A stretch of 64,000 nucleotides of DNA from assembly GCF_053078305.1 (NCBI RefSeq), contig NZ_CP166879.1. One strand, 5' to 3'. Below, in pieces: positions 23,613 to 63,920 of the stretch. A model generated the notes under the pieces. The model was not told the DNA's origin, made no database searches, and saw only the letters and a list, made by a program, of their open reading frames with translations. A program made the position numbers and the translations under genes. Numbering within the stretch: the first letter of the stretch is position 1; each line of letters starts with the position of its first letter.

Positions 23613-23778
23613 TGTTTAATCCTTTTGGTTTAAACCAGATGAAGCATCTTACGCTTACGCCAAAAAAGAAAGCAATTAACGGTGTATGACTTTGCAGATA
23701 ATTGTGACAAAGCTCTCTATTGACGTAATCACAGACTTATAAGGGAGATACTCGCATTGGTGTGCGCTCACGACAGGT

Positions 23779-23816
23779 AAAAAAAAACCTGCCAGCGATG
23801 GCAGGTTTTTTATAAC
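23779..23816. terminator. Rho-independent terminator downstream of bipA (palindromic, usable in both directions)
   Basis: A-run, hairpin cctgccagcgatggcagg, then T-run, immediately 3' of the bipA stop. Confidence 0.75.
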
Positions 23817-23828
23817 TAAAAAACGAAA

Positions 23829-25652
23829 TTAATCGTCTTTCGGTGCGCGGTTGGCGCGGCGACGATCGTTTTCCGTCAGGTGACGTTTACGAATACGGAT
23901 AGAGGTCGGAGTCACTTCTACCAGTTCGTCATCATCGATGAACTCCAGAGCTTGTTCCAGAGTCATGCGGATAGGCGGAACCAGAACAACGGCTTCGTCA
24001 GTACCGGAAGCACGCATGTTGGTCAGTTTCTTACCGGTCAGGCAGTTTACAGTCAGGTCGTTAGAGCGGCTATGAATACCGATAATCTGACCTTCGTAAA
24101 CTTCTGCACCGTGACCGAGGAACAGCTTACCGCGATCCTGCAGACCGAACAGCGCGAACGCGACCGCTTTACCCTGACCGTTAGAGATCAGTACACCGTT
24201 CTGACGCTGACCCACTTCGCCCGGACGTACGTCGTCGTAGTGGCTGAAGGTGGAGTACAGCAGACCCGTACCGGAAGTCATGGTCATGAACTCAGAACGG
24301 AAGCCAATCAGACCACGGCTTGGAATCACGTAGTCGAGACGTACGCGGCCTTTACCGTCTGGATTCATGTTTTTCAGGTCGCCTTTACGTTCGCCCAGCG
24401 CCTGCATTACAGAACCCTGATGCTGTTCTTCAACGTCCAGAGTCACGTTTTCATACGGCTCTTGTTTACGACCGTCGATTTCACGGAAGATAACTTTCGG
24501 ACGGGATACCGCCAGTTCGAAACCTTCACGACGCATGTTTTCGATCAGAACAGACAGGTGTAGTTCGCCACGACCAGAAACGCGGAACGCATCAGCGTCT
24601 TCGGTTTCTTCTACGCGCAGCGCAACGTTGTGTACCAGTTCTTTGTTCAGACGATCCAGGATCTGACGAGACGTTACGAACTTACCTTCTTTACCGCAGA
24701 ACGGCGAGGTGTTAACGCAGAAGAACATAGAAACGGTCGGCTCATCAACGGAGAGTGCCGGCAGCGCTTCAACGTTTTGCGTGTCGCAAACGGTGTCAGA
24801 AATGTTCAGTTCGCCCAGGCCCGTGATCGCCACGATATCGCCAGCTTCCGCCAGATCGGTTTCGATACGTTCCAGACCGAGGTGGCCCAGCACTTTACCG
24901 ACTTTCGCGTTACGGGTTTTGCCTTCGCTATCGATGATAGTGACCTGCTGGTTCGGCTTCACTTTACCGCGCTTGATGCGGCCAATGCCGATAACGCCAA
25001 CATAGCTGTTGTAATCGAGCTGAGAAATCTGCATCTGGAACGGACCGTCAAGGTCAACGTCCGGCGCAGGAACGTGATCAACAATCGCCTGATACAGCGG
25101 GGTCATGTCTTCCGCCATATCTTCGTGGTCCAGACCCGCGATACCGTTCAGCGCAGAAGCGTAAACGATCGGGAAGTCCAGCTGCTCGTCGGTCGCGTCG
25201 AGGTTAACGAACAGATCGAATACCTGATCCACAACCCAATCAGGACGCGCGCCAGGGCGGTCAACTTTGTTGATAACAACAATCGGCTTCAGGCCGTAAG
25301 CAAACGCTTTTTTGGTTACGAAGCGCGTTTGCGGCATCGGGCCGTCAAATGCGTCAACCACCAGCAGCACTGAGTCTACCATGGACATTACACGTTCAAC
25401 TTCACCACCGAAGTCGGCGTGCCCCGGGGTATCAACGATGTTGATACGGTAATCATTCCATTTGATAGCGGTGTTTTTCGCGAGGATGGTAATCCCACGC
25501 TCTTTCTCCAAATCGTTGGAGTCCATCACGCGCTCTTGGGTTTCGGCACGAGAGTCGAACGTACCGGATTGTTGGAGCAGCTTGTCTACCAGGGTGGTTT
25601 TACCATGGTCTACGTGCGCGATGATGGCGATATTACGCAATTTTTCGATCAC
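23829..25652 (-). CDS. bipA: Ribosome-associated translational GTPase BipA/TypA
   Basis: 607-aa ORF with G1 motif [17 protein letters not shown] and NKVD; EF-G-like domain layout. Confidence 0.95.
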
Positions 25653-25802
25653 AACTTTGCCTCAGGCATTAGAAATAGCGCGTTATTGTACACGGATTAA
25701 TCGCACTACAAAACAGGATCACAAACATCCTCCGCAAACAAGTATTGCAGAGTCCCTTTGTGATCGCTTTCACGGAGCATAAAAAGGGTTATCCAAAGGT
25801 CA

Positions 25803-25941
25803 TTGCACCAATATGGTGCTTAATGTTTCCATTGAAGCACTATATTGGTGCAACATTCACATCATGGTGCAGCCCTTTTGCACGATGTTAAGCATGATAA
25901 CGCCTTTTAGGGGCAATTTAAAAGTTGGCACAGTTTTCGCT
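25803..25941 (+). promoter_or_regulatory. glnA control region: NtrC enhancer sites and sigma-54 promoter glnAp2
   Basis: NtrC-type palindromes ttgcaccaatatggtgct (25803..25820) and gcactatattggtgca (25837..25852); sigma-54 -24/-12 element ttggcacagttttcgct (25925..25941) about 85 bp upstream of the glnA ATG. Confidence 0.8.
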
Positions 25942-28668: not shown

Positions 28669-30078
28669 ATGCAACGAGGGATAGTCTGGGTAGTCGATGA
28701 CGATAGTTCCATCCGTTGGGTGCTTGAACGTGCGCTCGCTGGAGCGGGTTTAACCTGTACGACATTTGAGAACGGCGCGGAGGTACTGGAGGCGCTGGCG
28801 AGCAAAACGCCGGATGTGCTGCTTTCAGATATCCGTATGCCGGGAATGGACGGGCTGGCGCTGCTCAAGCAGATTAAACAGCGCCATCCGATGCTTCCGG
28901 TCATCATTATGACCGCACATTCCGATCTGGATGCTGCCGTCAGCGCCTATCAACAAGGGGCGTTTGATTATCTGCCCAAACCGTTTGATATCGACGAAGC
29001 CGTGGCGCTGGTTGAGCGCGCCATCAGTCATTACCAGGAACAGCAGCAGCCGCGTAATGTTCAGCTTAACGGCCCAACGACCGATATCATCGGCGAAGCG
29101 CCAGCCATGCAGGACGTGTTCCGTATTATCGGTCGGCTTTCGCGTTCTTCTATTAGCGTGCTGATTAACGGCGAATCCGGCACCGGTAAAGAACTGGTCG
29201 CTCATGCCCTGCATCGCCACAGTCCGCGAGCCAAAGCGCCATTTATCGCGCTGAATATGGCAGCTATCCCAAAAGATTTGATCGAATCAGAACTGTTTGG
29301 TCACGAGAAAGGCGCGTTTACCGGCGCGAATACCATTCGTCAGGGGCGTTTTGAACAGGCTGATGGCGGTACATTATTCCTCGATGAAATTGGCGATATG
29401 CCGCTGGATGTGCAGACGCGTTTGCTGCGCGTGCTGGCAGATGGTCAGTTTTACCGCGTTGGCGGCTATGCGCCGGTGAAAGTGGATGTGCGGATTATCG
29501 CTGCCACTCACCAGAATCTTGAACAGCGGGTGCAGGAAGGTAAGTTCCGTGAGGATCTGTTCCACCGCCTGAACGTTATCCGCGTTCATCTGCCGCCGCT
29601 GCGCGAACGTCGGGAAGATATTCCCCGTCTGGCGCGCCATTTTTTACAGGTTGCCGCGCGCGAACTGGGCGTAGAAGCGAAGTTGCTGCATCCGGAAACC
29701 GAAGCTGCTCTGACGCGTCTGGCGTGGCCAGGCAACGTGCGCCAGCTGGAAAACACCTGCCGCTGGCTAACGGTGATGGCCGCCGGGCAGGAAGTGTTGA
29801 TTCAGGATTTGCCCGGCGAACTGTTTGAATCAACGGTTGCGGAGAGTACTTCGCAAATGCAACCGGACAGTTGGGCGACGCTTCTTGCGCAGTGGGCAGA
29901 CAGAGCGCTGCGTTCCGGTCATCAAAATCTGCTTTCCGAAGCGCAGCCAGAGCTGGAGCGGACGTTACTGACGACCGCGTTGCGACATACGCAGGGGCAT
30001 AAACAGGAAGCGGCGCGGCTACTTGGCTGGGGCCGTAACACCCTGACGCGTAAGTTAAAAGAGCTGGGGATGGAGTGA
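28669..30078 (+). CDS. glnG: Nitrogen regulation response regulator NtrC (NRI), sigma-54 activator
   Basis: Receiver domain (VWVVDDDSS…D…), AAA+ sigma-54 interaction domain ([14 protein letters not shown] motif) and C-terminal HTH; start taken at [12 protein letters not shown] rather than the longer ORF-track start. Confidence 0.95.
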
Positions 30079-30189
30079 TTCACGGCTTGTGTGTAAAGAT
30101 TGATTATTGAGCGCAAATTGCTGGTATTTTGCGCTTTACTGTTCCGATAAGTTCAGTATGATCTTGCCCGGAAAACGGGGAGAGTCATT

Positions 30190-30300
30190 ATGCTGGAATC
30201 AATAATTAATCTGGTATCGAGTGGCGCAGTTGACAGCCACACACCGCAAACTGCTGTTGCTGCCGTGCTGTGTGCCGCGATGATTGGGCTGTTTAGTTGA
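30190..30300 (+). CDS. yshB: Small membrane protein YshB (36 aa), below the ORF-track length cut-off
   Basis: ATG at 30190 preceded by ggggagag (Shine-Dalgarno-like); encodes MLESIINLVSSGAVDSHTPQTAVAAVLCAAMIGLFS, which I recall as K-12 YshB in the glnG-hemN intergenic region. Confidence 0.6.
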   Translation: MLESIINLVSSGAVDSHTPQTAVAAVLCAAMIGLFS

Positions 30301-30332
30301 GTTTCAGATTGCTGATGAAGTGCTCTTTGTTC

Positions 30333-30435
30333 ATGCCGGATGCGGCGTGAACGCCTTATCCGGCCTACAAAAGCAATATTTTCAACAGGTTTTGTAGGCC
30401 TGATAAGCGTAGCGCATCAGGCAATCTTGTTCTCA
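30333..30435. repeat. BIME (two inverted REP elements) between yshB and hemN
   Basis: gccggatgcggcgtgaacgccttatccggcctac and gtaggcctgataagcgtagcgcatcaggc. Confidence 0.8.
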
Positions 30436-30489
30436 GCACATTGATGGCGCTTTCGTTTTCTACTTTGTAAACGAAGCGCCATTCACTAT

Positions 30490-31863
30490 TTAAATCACCC
30501 GAGAGAACTGCTGCATCCGCGCTTTCTGGCGCAGATAGGTATCAAAGCACATGCAAATGTTGCGGATCAGCAAGCGACCTTTCGCCGTCACCTGTATTCC
30601 CTTCTCATCCACATCCACCAGCCCATCTTTTGCTAACGGGGCGAGCAGCTTGAGATCTTCCGCAAAGTAATCAGCGAAGTGCAAATCCCACTGTTTCTCA
30701 ATAGGGGCGTAATCCAGACGGAAGTTGCAGATGAGCGACTTAATCACATCGCGGCGAATACAGTCATCACGCGTTAGCGCAATACCACGCCACAGCGCAT
30801 TGCCTTGTTCATCCACTTGCTGATAGTACTGCTTCAACTCTTTCTGGTTCTGCGCGTAGCAGTCGCCAATCATACTGATGGCGGAAACGCCCATCCCCAG
30901 CAGATCGGTATCGCCCTGAGTGGTGTAGCCCTGAAAGTTACGATGCAGCACGCCTTCACGCTGGGCCAACGCCAGCTCGTCATCAGGACGGGCAAAGTGA
31001 TCCATACCGATAAACTGATAGCCCGATTGCGTCAGGAAGGCGATGGTTTCCTGCAGGATATCGAGTTTTTGCTGCGGACTCGGCAGGTCAGCATCTTTGA
31101 TTTTGCGCTGAGCAGCAAAAATGGTCGGCAGATGCGCATAGTTAAAGACGCTCAGACGGTCAGGGTTTAGCTCCGCCACGCGTTTCAGGGTAAAGGCGAA
31201 ACTTTCCGGCGTCTGTTTCGGCAGGCCGTAAATCAGGTCGATGTTGGTGGAGGTAAAGCCAATCTCACGCGCATGGTTAAGCAGCGCAAAGATAAACTCT
31301 TCATCCTGCTCGCGGTTAACCAGACGTTGCACTTCTTTGTTGAAGTCCTGCACGCCCATACTCAGGCGATTAAAGCCCTCGGCGCGTAAATGATCGAGTA
31401 CATCCAGTTCGATTTCCCGCGGATCGACTTCGATCGAAATCTCCGCATCGGCATTGAACTGGAAGTTTTCGCGCAGCAGCTTCATCAGGCGGCTGATTTG
31501 CGCTTTATTAAGATACGTCGGCGTTCCGCCGCCCCAGTGCAGCTGGCTGACGTGACGCCCGGCGAACAGCGGTGCACGATGGACGATTTCTTGCTCCAGC
31601 GCGTCCAGATACTGATCGGCCTTGTGCTGCTGGCGAGTAACAATCTTATTGCAGCCGCAGAAGTAACAAAGCTTATGGCAGAACGGGATATGTACGTAGA
31701 GAGATAATGGACGCTCAGGATAGCGCGCCACGGCTTGTAAAAACGCCTGTTCGCCGAAGTCTTCTGAAAACTCCAGCGCGGTCGGGTACGAGGTGTATCG
31801 TGGCCCGGAATAGTTATATTTCTGGATCAGGGCCAGATCCCAGTCGATTTGCTGTACAGACAT
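30490..31863 (-). CDS. hemN: Oxygen-independent coproporphyrinogen III oxidase (radical SAM)
   Basis: Radical-SAM cysteine motif HIPFCHKLCYFCGCN; start taken at the second Met (MSVQQIDWD…). Confidence 0.95.
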   Translation of the reverse strand: MSVQQIDWDLALIQKYNYSGPRYTSYPTALEFSEDFGEQAFLQAVARYPERPLSLYVHIPFCHKLCYFCGCNKIVTRQQHKADQYLDALEQEIVHRAPLFAGRHVSQLHWGGGTPTYLNKAQISRLMKLLRENFQFNADAEISIEVDPREIELDVLDHLRAEGFNRLSMGVQDFNKEVQRLVNREQDEEFIFALLNHAREIGFTSTNIDLIYGLPKQTPESFAFTLKRVAELNPDRLSVFNYAHLPTIFAAQRKIKDADLPSPQQKLDILQETIAFLTQSGYQFIGMDHFARPDDELALAQREGVLHRNFQGYTTQGDTDLLGMGVSAISMIGDCYAQNQKELKQYYQQVDEQGNALWRGIALTRDDCIRRDVIKSLICNFRLDYAPIEKQWDLHFADYFAEDLKLLAPLAKDGLVDVDEKGIQVTAKGRLLIRNICMCFDTYLRQKARMQQFSRVI

Positions 31864-32558: not shown

Positions 32559-32626
32559 AATGGTTCGTCTTTTAGCCGTTTTATTCAGTATAGATTTGCG
32601 GCGGAATCTAACAGAAAGCAAGCAAA

Positions 32627-32869
32627 GAAAAAAGGCGACAGATTACTCTGTCGCCTTTTTTCCTGACTCATAACCCTTAACGGGTCTTACAATCCTTGCA
32701 GGCCGCCAACACACCCTGTTTTTCCATTAGCCGGAACAATCCGTGTTGATTCCATTTCCGTTTAATTACGTCTCCGGACGTTTGTCTTCCTGACAATCCT
32801 CTGTCTTCGCCTCCTGGCGCTCCTGACCCTCATCCTGAGTCATTGTTCCTGTTAGCGTCCTCGCTCTAT
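32627..32869 (-). ncRNA. csrC: CsrC small RNA (CsrA-sequestering)
   Basis: Minus-strand sequence beginning atagagcgaggacgctaacaggaacaatgactcaggatgagggtcaggagcgccaggaggcgaagacagaggattgtcaggaagacaaacgtccggagacg…, with many GGA motifs, ending in the terminator ggcgacagagtaatctgtcgcc plus T-run; lies in the yihA-yihI intergenic as in K-12. Confidence 0.9.
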
Positions 32870-33896: not shown

Positions 33897-34006
33897 ATAA
33901 AAAACGCCCCAGTCATTACTGACTGGGGCGGCTAAAATATTCAGCCAAATCCGATTACGTGAAGTAAAAGGTCTGAAAGATAGAACATCTTACCTCTGTA
34001 CCCTAC
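33897..34006 (-). ncRNA. spf: Spot 42 small RNA
   Basis: Minus strand reads gtagggtacagaggtaagatgttctatctttcagaccttttacttcacgtaatcggatttggctgaatattttagccgccccagtcagtaatgactggggcgtttttta, matching Spot 42 and its terminator; located between engB and polA. Confidence 0.95.
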
Positions 34007-34153
34007 GCGACTAACTTTACTCTTTTTTGTTCAGTTCAGAAAGCACTTTTTGTAATTTTTTTTCAGTTGTTGCATAGGAATTTCTAATAGCCATCACAAA
34101 ACGTGACAGCTTATGTTGCTTACTTACGAAAAAAGGGCATGTTCAGGCGAATC

Positions 34154-43098: not shown

Positions 43099-43218
43099 AT
43101 GCCTGGCAGTTCCCTACTCTCGCATGGGGAGACCCCACACTACCATCGGCGCTACGGCGTTTCACTTCTGAGTTCGGCATGGGGTCAGGTGGGACCACCG
43201 CGCTACGGCCGCCAGGCA
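43099..43218 (-). rRNA. rrfA: 5S ribosomal RNA
   Basis: 120-nt exact-looking match to E. coli 5S (tgcctggcggccgtagcgcggtgg…gggaactgccaggcat) on the minus strand. Confidence 0.97.
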
Positions 43219-43311
43219 AATTCTGTTTTATCAGACCGCTTCTGCGTTCTGATTTAATCTGTATCAGGCTGAAAATCTTCTCTCAATCCGCCAAAACAGC
43301 TTCGGCGTTGT

Positions 43312-46214
<2,903 letters not shown>

Positions 46215-46397
46215 TCACAACCCGAAGATGTTTCTTTCGATTCATCATCGTGTTGCGAAAATTTGAGAGACTCACGAACAACTTTCGTTGTTCAGTGTTT
46301 CAATTTTCAGCTTGATCCAGATTTTTAAAGAGCAAAACTTCGCAGTGAACCTTTGCAGGTACACTCTGAAGTATTTTTTATTTAATCACTACAGAGA

Positions 46398-46473
46398 TGG
46401 TGGAGCTATGCGGGATCGAACCGCAGACCTCCTGCGTGCAAAGCAGGCGCTCTCCCAGCTGAGCTATAGCCCC
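46398..46473 (-). tRNA. alaT: tRNA-Ala (UGC)
   Basis: Minus strand ggggctatagctcagctgggagagcgcctgctttgcacgcaggaggtctgcggttcgatcccgcatagctccacca; in the 16S-23S spacer. Confidence 0.97.
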
Positions 46474-46515
46474 ATAACATGTAGTTAAAACCTCTTCAAA
46501 TTTGCCGTGCAAATT

Positions 46516-46592
<77 letters not shown>

Positions 46593-46660
46593 GTAGAGGT
46601 TTTACTGCTCATTTTCATCAGACAATCTGTGTGAGCACTGCAAAGTACGCTTCTTTAAGG

Positions 46661-48202
<1,542 letters not shown>

Positions 48203-61677: not shown

Positions 61678-63920
<2,243 letters not shown>

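What the first reader, a model, noticed from the sequence alone, without database searches (positions are those of the whole stretch)
30190..30300. 36-codon small ORF (YshB-like) missed by the ORF track
An ATG with a plausible ribosome-binding site encodes a 36-aa hydrophobic peptide between glnG and hemN. It is below the 60-aa track threshold, and it matches my recollection of the K-12 small membrane protein YshB.
Basis: partly seen in the sequence, partly recalled or inferred. Interest (0 to 1): 0.25.

Follow-up and report, generated by a model that had tools for sequence, protein, structure and literature searches.

The report
Known small protein gene yshB

Summary
It encodes 36 aa, MLESIINLVSSGAVDSHTPQTAVAAVLCAAMIGLFS, and a GGGGAGAG Shine-Dalgarno sequence ends 5 nt upstream of the ATG. 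The peptide is identical to K-12 MG1655 YshB (b4686). It scores 72.1 bits against the NCBIfam equivalog NF033841 'small_YshB' (cut-off 34). The gene is single-copy in 5425 of 5426 complete E. coli genomes, and every listed row is annotated yshB.

ORF length alone is not evidence, because 67% of shuffles of the intergenic region give an ATG ORF at least this long. Conservation is the evidence. dN/dS is 0.04-0.16 within Enterobacteriaceae, and DNA conservation stops at the stop codon. A sigma-70-like promoter (CTTTAC / GTATnAT) and the SD are also conserved.

Published work reports the native protein by top-down mass spectrometry, cleavage of tagged YshB by RseP, and a role for the Salmonella orthologue in intracellular replication. 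The molecular function in E. coli is still unknown. The most likely one is a small inner-membrane modulator with a C-terminal helix.

Verdict: observation confirmed, interpretation supported, already known, low interest.

The parts
30190..30300 (+). yshB coding sequence, 36 codons plus TGA. Product: MLESIINLVSSGAVDSHTPQTAVAAVLCAAMIGLFS.
   Evidence: ORF listing. Identical to MG1655 b4686. NF033841 at 72.1 bits against a cut-off of 34. Annotated yshB in RefSeq E. coli genomes. dN/dS 0.04-0.16 within Enterobacteriaceae.
30177..30184 (+). Shine-Dalgarno sequence GGGGAGAG. The GGAG core lies 7 nt upstream of the ATG.
   Evidence: Read directly from the sequence. The GGG(G) run is invariant in all 10 aligned orthologous loci.
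30135..30162 (+). Sigma-70-like promoter of yshB: -35 TTTACT, 16-nt spacer, -10 TATGAT. The predicted transcription start is near 30169, which is inferred, not measured.
   Evidence: Consensus scan. CTTTAC and GTATnAT are invariant from E. coli to Erwinia tracheiphila. [quoted passage not shown]
30110..30135 (+). Inverted repeat AGCGCAAA-N10-TTTGCGCT followed by TTTACTGTT. It is probably the glnALG terminator hairpin. Its 3' arm and T-run abut or overlap the yshB -35.
   Evidence: Inverted repeat I6. The MFE fold contains the 9-bp stem, but the z-score is only 0.14. The repeat is conserved in Enterobacteriaceae but not in Erwiniaceae. The terminator role is inferred.
30334..30423 (.). Two inverted REP elements (a BIME-like pair) in the yshB 3' flank. 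They form a very stable structure and could act as an mRNA 3' stabiliser or transcription barrier between the convergent yshB and hemN genes.
   Evidence: Inverted repeats I1, I2 and I4. The fold of 30296-30440 gives -69.1 kcal/mol, z = -9.1. There is a sub-threshold naRNA4 (REP-derived) Rfam match at 30329-30365. Sequences matching the 411-nt intergenic query occur at a median of 39 places per E. coli genome, whereas the ORF alone is single-copy, so the repeated part lies outside yshB.
30444..30482 (.). Stem-loop ATGGCGCTT...AAGCGCCAT, 7 nt downstream of the hemN stop codon. It is probably the hemN terminator, and possibly bidirectional for yshB.
   Evidence: Inverted repeat I5. The folds give -20.5 kcal/mol (z = -6.5) on + and -20.4 kcal/mol (z = -4.5) on -. 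The consensus scan did not call it an intrinsic terminator.

Best explanation
This is the known gene yshB (b4686 in K-12). It is an independently transcribed, translated 36-codon gene lying between the end of the glnALG operon and the convergent hemN gene. A conserved sigma-70-type promoter (30135-30162) and a strong Shine-Dalgarno sequence drive synthesis of a 36-aa hydrophobic peptide. The peptide is predicted to form a short N-terminal amphipathic helix (residues 2-12), a conserved polar turn (S-H-T-P-Q-T) and a C-terminal hydrophobic helix (about 17-34). That helix is long enough to sit in or across the inner membrane. The steps shown here are the gene's identity, its conservation, purifying selection on the frame, and conservation of the promoter and SD. 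The steps taken from the literature are detection of the protein, high synthesis in stationary phase, RseP-dependent cleavage of tagged constructs, and the Salmonella virulence phenotype. The inferred step is the mode of action. Like other enterobacterial small membrane proteins (MgrB, AcrZ, MgtS, CydX), YshB most likely binds and modulates a larger inner-membrane protein or complex, and RseP intramembrane proteolysis limits its level. The confidence given (0.95) is for the identity as the real, known gene yshB; the membrane-modulator mode of action alone I put at about 0.5.
For: Identity:
- The peptide is 36/36 identical to MG1655 YshB.
- NCBIfam NF033841 equivalog scores 72.1 bits against a cut-off of 34.
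- UniProt YSHB_ECOLI and RefSeq 'YshB family small membrane protein' are names attached to this exact sequence.
- It is present once in 5425 of 5426 complete E. coli genomes at >=95% identity, and all listed rows are annotated yshB.

Coding status:
- Ten orthologues keep an intact 36-37-codon frame.
- Ecoli-Salmonella has Sd = 16.5 and Nd = 3.5 (dN/dS 0.04). dN/dS is 0.04-0.16 within Enterobacteriaceae.
- Variable columns by codon position are 23/10/32.
- Conservation ends at the stop codon.

Synteny: glnA-glnL-glnG-yshB-hemN holds in Salmonella, Citrobacter, Enterobacter, the two unnamed loci and two Erwiniaceae genomes; in Erwinia tracheiphila one gene lies between yshB and hemN.

Expression signals: the -35, -10 and SD are invariant.

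Structure:
- GRAVY is +1.12 and the best 15-residue window, TAVAAVLCAAMIGLF, has KD 2.37.
- AlphaFold2 gives helices 2-12 and 17-34 at mean pLDDT 72.7.

Literature:
- Top-down MS detects YshB (PMC12529367).
- YshB is a class I RseP substrate in vivo and in vitro (PMC10470546).
- More than 11,000 copies per cell are predicted in stationary phase, citing Li et al. 2014 (PMC7549839).
- The Salmonella homologue promotes intracellular replication (Bomjan 2019, as cited; that paper is not held here).
Against: Nothing contradicts the gene's identity. The mechanism is weaker on five points.
- No binding partner is known, and no solved structure contains a relative.
- The hydrophobic stretch is short. 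The 19-residue window has KD of only 1.53, and only TOPCONS, not TMHMM, is cited for a TM segment in RseP-paper Table S1.
- That predicted N-out/C-in topology is opposite to the type II topology usual for RseP substrates.
- All RseP data use N-terminally tagged constructs.
- A C-terminally His-tagged YshB could not be detected after plasmid expression (PMC7549839).
Confidence: 0.95

Rival explanations
1. The ORF is a chance open frame in a non-coding intergenic region and is not translated.
For: ORFs of this length are common by chance. 1331 of 2000 shuffles of the 411-nt intergenic region contain an ATG ORF of at least 36 codons. Several other 20-40-codon ORFs overlap the same region.
Against: The frame and its length are intact in all ten orthologues. 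Synonymous changes far exceed non-synonymous ones, with dN/dS 0.04-0.16. The other two forward frames carry stops in all but three cases. Conservation stops at the stop codon. The SD is invariant. The protein is reported by top-down MS.
Confidence: 0.01
2. The conserved element acts mainly as an RNA, and the ORF is incidental or secondary. It would be a glnG 3'UTR-derived or independently transcribed sRNA, analogous to NrsZ downstream of ntrBC in Pseudomonas or GlnZ downstream of glnA. In other words, a dual-function RNA.
For: PMC9731577 notes that the corresponding position downstream of ntrBC in Pseudomonas holds the sRNA NrsZ. In Salmonella, YshB was found during a small-RNA study (my recollection of Bomjan 2019, not verified here). 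The transcript would be short and is followed by highly structured REP elements.
Against: The transcript region 30163-30300 folds no better than shuffles (z = +0.40). No Rfam family matches the ORF. Variation is concentrated at third codon positions with strong amino-acid conservation, as expected for a protein rather than an RNA structure. yshB is not nitrogen-regulated.
Confidence: 0.04
3. YshB is translated but is not an integral transmembrane protein. It would be a peripheral or amphipathic helical-hairpin peptide, or a soluble one, acting at the membrane surface or in the cytoplasm.
For: The hydrophobic segment is only about 15-16 residues of high hydropathy, and the 19-residue window has KD 1.53. 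No flanking positive charges fix a topology, because the peptide has no K or R. Only TOPCONS is cited for a TM. The MS paper sets 'the small protein, YshB' apart from 'small membrane proteins'. AlphaFold2 gives two helices separated by a conserved polar SHTPQT turn.
Against: RseP is an intramembrane protease. It cleaves tagged YshB in all four assays, including with purified enzyme, which argues that the helix enters the bilayer. NCBI and Pfam curators name the family a small membrane protein family.
Confidence: 0.2

Closest known systems
YshB of E. coli K-12 (b4686; UniProt YSHB_ECOLI; NCBIfam NF033841 'small_YshB'; Pfam PF28018)
   Same: The 36-aa sequence is identical. The neighbours (glnG upstream, hemN convergent downstream), promoter and SD are the same. 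The only DNA differences from MG1655 are three synonymous changes in the ORF.
   Different: Nothing differs in the protein. The yshB-hemN spacer is 189 nt here against 228 nt in MG1655. The window matches O157:H7-type strains at 100% over this stretch.
Salmonella enterica YshB (Bomjan et al. 2019, J Bacteriol 201:e00314-19)
   Same: It is 92% identical, differing at V23L, M31L and I32V. It has the same length and the same glnG-yshB-hemN position.
   Different: The phenotype, intracellular replication and virulence, was reported for Salmonella. No equivalent phenotype is known for E. coli, and the paper could not be read here.
Enterobacterial small inner-membrane regulators (MgrB, AcrZ, MgtS, CydX)
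   Same: They share the size class (under 50 aa), a single hydrophobic helix and independent small transcription units. MgrB and CydX were also candidate RseP substrates in the same screen.
   Different: There is no sequence relationship. Those proteins have defined partners (PhoQ, AcrB, MgtA, cytochrome bd) and YshB has none. This is a functional analogy only, not membership.

Membership tests
YshB family small membrane protein (NCBIfam NF033841, equivalog) | Whole-protein score above the curated cut-off of the family HMM | tested here: met
   72.1 bits against a cut-off of 34, E = 2.4e-20, covering residues 1-36 and profile positions 1-40.
YshB family small membrane protein (NCBIfam NF033841, equivalog) | Sequence identity with the founding member, E. 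coli K-12 b4686 | tested here: met
   36/36 identical. The exact sequence carries the names YSHB_ECOLI and YshB family small membrane protein in public sources.
YshB family small membrane protein (NCBIfam NF033841, equivalog) | Conserved genomic position immediately downstream of glnG (ntrC), on the same strand, convergent with hemN | tested here: met
   Met in the window, MG1655, Citrobacter, Salmonella, Enterobacter, L093 and L095 and Erwiniaceae. Erwinia tracheiphila has one inserted gene before hemN.
YshB family small membrane protein (NCBIfam NF033841, equivalog) | Family signature residues: length about 36 aa, H17-T-P-Q-T-A core, Cys28, C-terminal LF(S/H) | tested here: met
   The invariant columns M1, E3, H17, Q20, T21, A22, A25, C28, A29 and F35 are all present in the window protein.
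YshB family small membrane protein (NCBIfam NF033841, equivalog) | The frame is under purifying selection, i.e. it is a real coding gene | tested here: met
   dN/dS is 0.04-0.16 within Enterobacteriaceae and at most 0.5 against Erwiniaceae where dS is not saturated. There are no frameshifts or stops in ten orthologues.
YshB family small membrane protein (NCBIfam NF033841, equivalog) | The protein is actually made | not testable with these tools
   Literature only: top-down MS detection (PMC12529367) and a synthesis-rate estimate attributed to Li et al. 2014. Hemm et al. 2008, which tagged the protein, is not held.
Bacterial single-pass small membrane proteins (functional class) | One transmembrane helix inserted in the inner membrane | tested here: inconclusive
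   A hydrophobic helix at 17-34 is predicted at pLDDT about 75-83. The 15-residue KD window is 2.37 but the 19-residue window is only 1.53. The TM is called by TOPCONS only and there is no experimental topology. RseP cleavage of tagged forms supports insertion.
Pfam-A (local copy) | Match to a Pfam family | tested here: not met
   The local Pfam-A scan returned no family. However, the precomputed annotation of the orthologues lists PF28018:YshB. The local library probably predates that model, so this does not count against membership.

The most novel reading that the evidence does not exclude
The identity of the gene is settled, so the only open space is function. The family has an invariant polar turn and an invariant His17 and Cys28 (H17-T-P-Q-T-A ... 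C28) between an amphipathic and a hydrophobic helix. It is restricted to Enterobacteriaceae and Erwiniaceae and has an invariant strong promoter. These features leave room for YshB to be a specific ligand- or metal-dependent modulator of an as yet unidentified inner-membrane complex, rather than a generic hydrophobic peptide. If so, RseP cleavage would be a regulatory switch.
Probability: 0.12. Interest if true: 0.35.

Novelty: already known. Interest (0 to 1): 0.05.

Why it matters
For the scan, this is a positive control. A tool-free reader correctly spotted a real small-protein gene that sits below a 60-aa ORF threshold, which shows that such thresholds hide bona fide genes. Biologically it adds nothing new. 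yshB has been annotated in K-12 since the 2008 small-protein surveys, it has NCBIfam and Pfam families, and it is called in essentially every E. coli genome. The remaining open question, what YshB binds and does, cannot be advanced from sequence alone.

Tried and rejected
I used the search of protein representatives instead.

2. The single genome-contig scan was made with GlnG, to sample loci without conditioning on YshB. It served as a negative set, with no YshB-like frame within 2.5 kb of glnG outside Enterobacteriaceae/Erwiniaceae. Orthologues had to be collected through exact-sequence look-ups instead.

3. The local Pfam scan gave no hit, although PF28018:YshB exists in the precomputed annotations.

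4. The primary papers were not held: Hemm 2008, Hemm 2010, Fontaine 2011, Li 2014 and Bomjan 2019. Their content is cited only second-hand or marked as recollection.

5. An RNA-structure reading of the ORF region was rejected. The fold gives z = +0.40 and no Rfam family matches the ORF.

6. The chance-ORF reading was rejected on conservation, not on length.

7. A PDB profile search for a solved complex containing YshB found nothing.

Full report
**Observation**

The sequence at window 30190..30300 (+ strand) is an ATG-initiated, TGA-terminated frame of 36 codons. It encodes MLESIINLVSSGAVDSHTPQTAVAAVLCAAMIGLFS. GGGGAGAG lies at 30177-30184, which puts a GGAG core 7 nt from the ATG. The ORF sits in a 411-nt gap between two genes. 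One is a 469-aa sigma-54 response regulator ending at 30078 (+). The other is a 457-459-aa radical-SAM protein ending at 30490 (-). Comparison with annotated genomes identifies these as glnG and hemN.

**Is it more than chance?**

Length alone is not. In 2000 shuffles of the 411-nt intergenic sequence, 1331 contained an ATG ORF of at least 36 codons. Several other 20-40-codon frames overlap the region. The case for a gene rests on comparison with other genomes.

**Identity**

- The translation is identical, 36 of 36, to yshB (b4686) of E. coli K-12 MG1655. That gene lies in the same position, glnG-yshB-hemN.
- It scores 72.1 bits against the NCBIfam equivalog model NF033841 'small_YshB', whose curated cut-off is 34.
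- The exact sequence carries the names YSHB_ECOLI and 'YshB family small membrane protein' in public sources.
- A 131-nt query covering the SD and the ORF matches once in 5425 of 5426 complete E. coli genomes, always at >=95% identity. All 30 rows sampled across the ranking are annotated yshB.
- The local Pfam copy gave no hit. The precomputed annotations of the orthologues nevertheless carry PF28018:YshB, so the local library probably predates that model.

I collected orthologous loci from these sources:
- Citrobacter werkmanii;
- Salmonella;
- Enterobacter bugandensis;
- two further enterobacterial genomes of unrecorded name, one of which carries a sequence found in more than 56,000 index blocks;
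- two Erwiniaceae genomes;
- Erwinia tracheiphila.

The results were as follows.
- All have an intact frame of 36 codons, or 37 in E. tracheiphila, directly downstream of glnG on the same strand.
- Nei-Gojobori counts show many synonymous and few non-synonymous changes. E. coli against Salmonella gives Sd 16.5 and Nd 3.5 (dN/dS 0.04). Against Citrobacter the ratio is 0.06, and against Enterobacter, L093 and L095 it is 0.11-0.16.
- Variable alignment columns by codon position are 23/10/32.
- In the DNA alignment, conservation collapses immediately after the stop codon.

The frame is therefore under purifying selection as a protein, and the refutation test fails to refute.

**Distribution**

A full HMMER scan of 1.84 billion cluster representatives found only 15 representatives at E <= 1e-3. 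Several of those are frameshifted or truncated versions of the same peptide. A profile built from 14 YshB sequences found nothing (best E = 0.56) within 2.5 kb of glnG in 79 other loci. Those loci came from Photorhabdus, Vibrio, Shewanella, Pseudomonas and more distant Proteobacteria. In Photorhabdus a transposase-like gene follows glnG. On this sample the family is confined to Enterobacteriaceae and Erwiniaceae.

**Expression signals**

- A sigma-70-like promoter was called at 30135-30162: TTTACT, 16 nt, TATGAT.
- Its hexamers (CTTTAC and GTATnAT) and the SD G-run are invariant from E. coli to Erwinia tracheiphila, while the surrounding sequence diverges.
- Upstream, the inverted repeat AGCGCAAA-N10-TTTGCGCT (30110-30135) is a plausible glnALG terminator. 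Its 3' arm and T-run run into the yshB -35. Its fold is no better than shuffles (z = 0.14), so this role is inferred.
- Downstream, two inverted REP elements (30334-30423) fold very stably at -69.1 kcal/mol, z = -9.1. They explain the sub-threshold naRNA4 match. They also explain why the whole intergenic query matches a median of 39 places per genome while the ORF matches once.
- A further stem-loop (30444-30482) lies 7 nt beyond the hemN stop codon.

**The protein**

- It is hydrophobic (GRAVY +1.12), has no K or R, and has only E3 and D15 as charged residues.
- The invariant columns are M1, E3, H17, Q20, T21, A22, A25, C28, A29 and F35.
- AlphaFold2 with the 14-sequence alignment gives helices 2-12 and 17-34 at moderate confidence, mean pLDDT 72.7.
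- The N-terminal segment is amphipathic (hydrophobic moment 1.28). The C-terminal segment is uniformly hydrophobic. Its 15-residue KD window is 2.37, but the 19-residue window is only 1.53.
- No solved structure contains a relative.

**Literature**

- YshB was detected intact by top-down proteomics (PMC12529367).
- Tagged YshB is a class I substrate of the intramembrane protease RseP. It was positive in all four assays, including with chromosomal RseP and with purified enzyme (PMC10470546).
- That paper's Table S1 lists a TM at residues 15-35 predicted by TOPCONS, N-out/C-in, with no experimental topology.
- PMC7549839 cites Li et al. 2014 for a prediction of more than 11,000 copies per stationary-phase cell. 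It also reports that a C-terminally His-tagged YshB was not detectable after plasmid expression.
- The Salmonella orthologue is reported to promote intracellular replication and virulence (Bomjan et al. 2019, cited). I could not read that paper.
- Hemm et al. 2008, which first described the gene, is also not held.

**Mechanism**

Shown here:
- the gene's identity;
- purifying selection on the frame;
- conserved synteny;
- conserved promoter and SD.

Taken from the literature:
- the protein exists and is abundant in stationary phase;
- RseP can cleave tagged constructs;
- the Salmonella orthologue matters inside macrophages.

Inferred:
- YshB inserts its C-terminal helix into the inner membrane;
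- like MgrB, AcrZ, MgtS or CydX, it acts by binding a larger membrane protein;
- RseP controls its level.

I put about 0.95-0.97 on 'real, known gene yshB' and roughly 0.5 on the membrane-modulator mode of action. The main alternative is a peripheral or amphipathic peptide, at about 0.2. Chance ORF and RNA-only readings are effectively excluded.

**Verdict**

The feature is already known and routinely annotated. Interest is low. Its value is as a check that the first-stage reader can recognise true sub-threshold genes.

Noticed in passing
window 30334-30423: A pair of inverted REP elements (BIME-like) lies between yshB and hemN and folds at -69.1 kcal/mol (z = -9.1). The yshB-hemN spacer varies in length between strains. 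It is 189 nt here against 228 nt in MG1655, and several strains align in two pieces with about 8% of the query missing (hits H11-H19).
   Followed up: partly
window 30110-30140: The putative glnG terminator hairpin (AGCGCAAA-N10-TTTGCGCT) runs directly into the yshB -35 hexamer, so terminator and promoter share bases. MG1655 carries a G-to-A change in the 3' arm (TTTTACGCT) that weakens the stem. The block TGAGCGCAAAnnGCnGnTATTTTGCGCTTTACTGTTCCG is conserved almost base-for-base across Enterobacteriaceae. That is more than a simple hairpin needs, so it might also be a protein-binding site.
   Followed up: no
window 30166-30180: GCCCGG-AAAA-CGGGG lies between the -10 and the SD and can form a 4-bp stem that touches the SD. 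The stem bases are conserved in most orthologues, including the Erwiniaceae loci L083/L084 with different loops. The predicted TSS (about 30169) may fall inside it, so its relevance is unclear.
   Followed up: no
L085-L088 (Erwinia tracheiphila), 3115-5646: In Erwinia tracheiphila an SBP_bac_5 (periplasmic solute-binding protein) gene is inserted between yshB and hemN. Its YshB is 37 aa, with one extra residue in the linker.
   Followed up: no
L004 (Photorhabdus caribbeanensis), 4036-5445: Photorhabdus has no yshB after glnG. A 469-aa transposase-like ORF lies there on the opposite strand instead.
   Followed up: no
proteins P0002, P0005-P0008, P0026: Public collections hold frameshifted or read-through variants of YshB. 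One example is a 43-aa Salmonella Uzaramo form with a lost stop codon. Others are 46-91-aa chimeras from metagenome or assembly data that share only the first 26-33 residues. Most are probably assembly or sequencing errors, but the Salmonella stop-loss variant is seen on three contigs.
   Followed up: no
local Pfam-A library versus precomputed annotations: The hmmscan against the local Pfam-A copy returns nothing for YshB. The precomputed Pfam hits for every orthologue list PF28018:YshB. The two resources are evidently of different releases.
   Followed up: no
window 2-60; 23776-23844; 25734-25841; 32616-32869; 33898-34016; 43101-48202; 63315-63566: The Rfam gathering-level scan gives the wider context. 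It finds a SECIS element at the very start of the window, STnc370, ES222, CsrC, Spot 42, a complete rRNA operon with two tRNAs and StyR-44, and the Erse sRNA. All are ordinary for this E. coli chromosomal region. The window is 100% identical to O157:H7-type strains over yshB.
   Followed up: no
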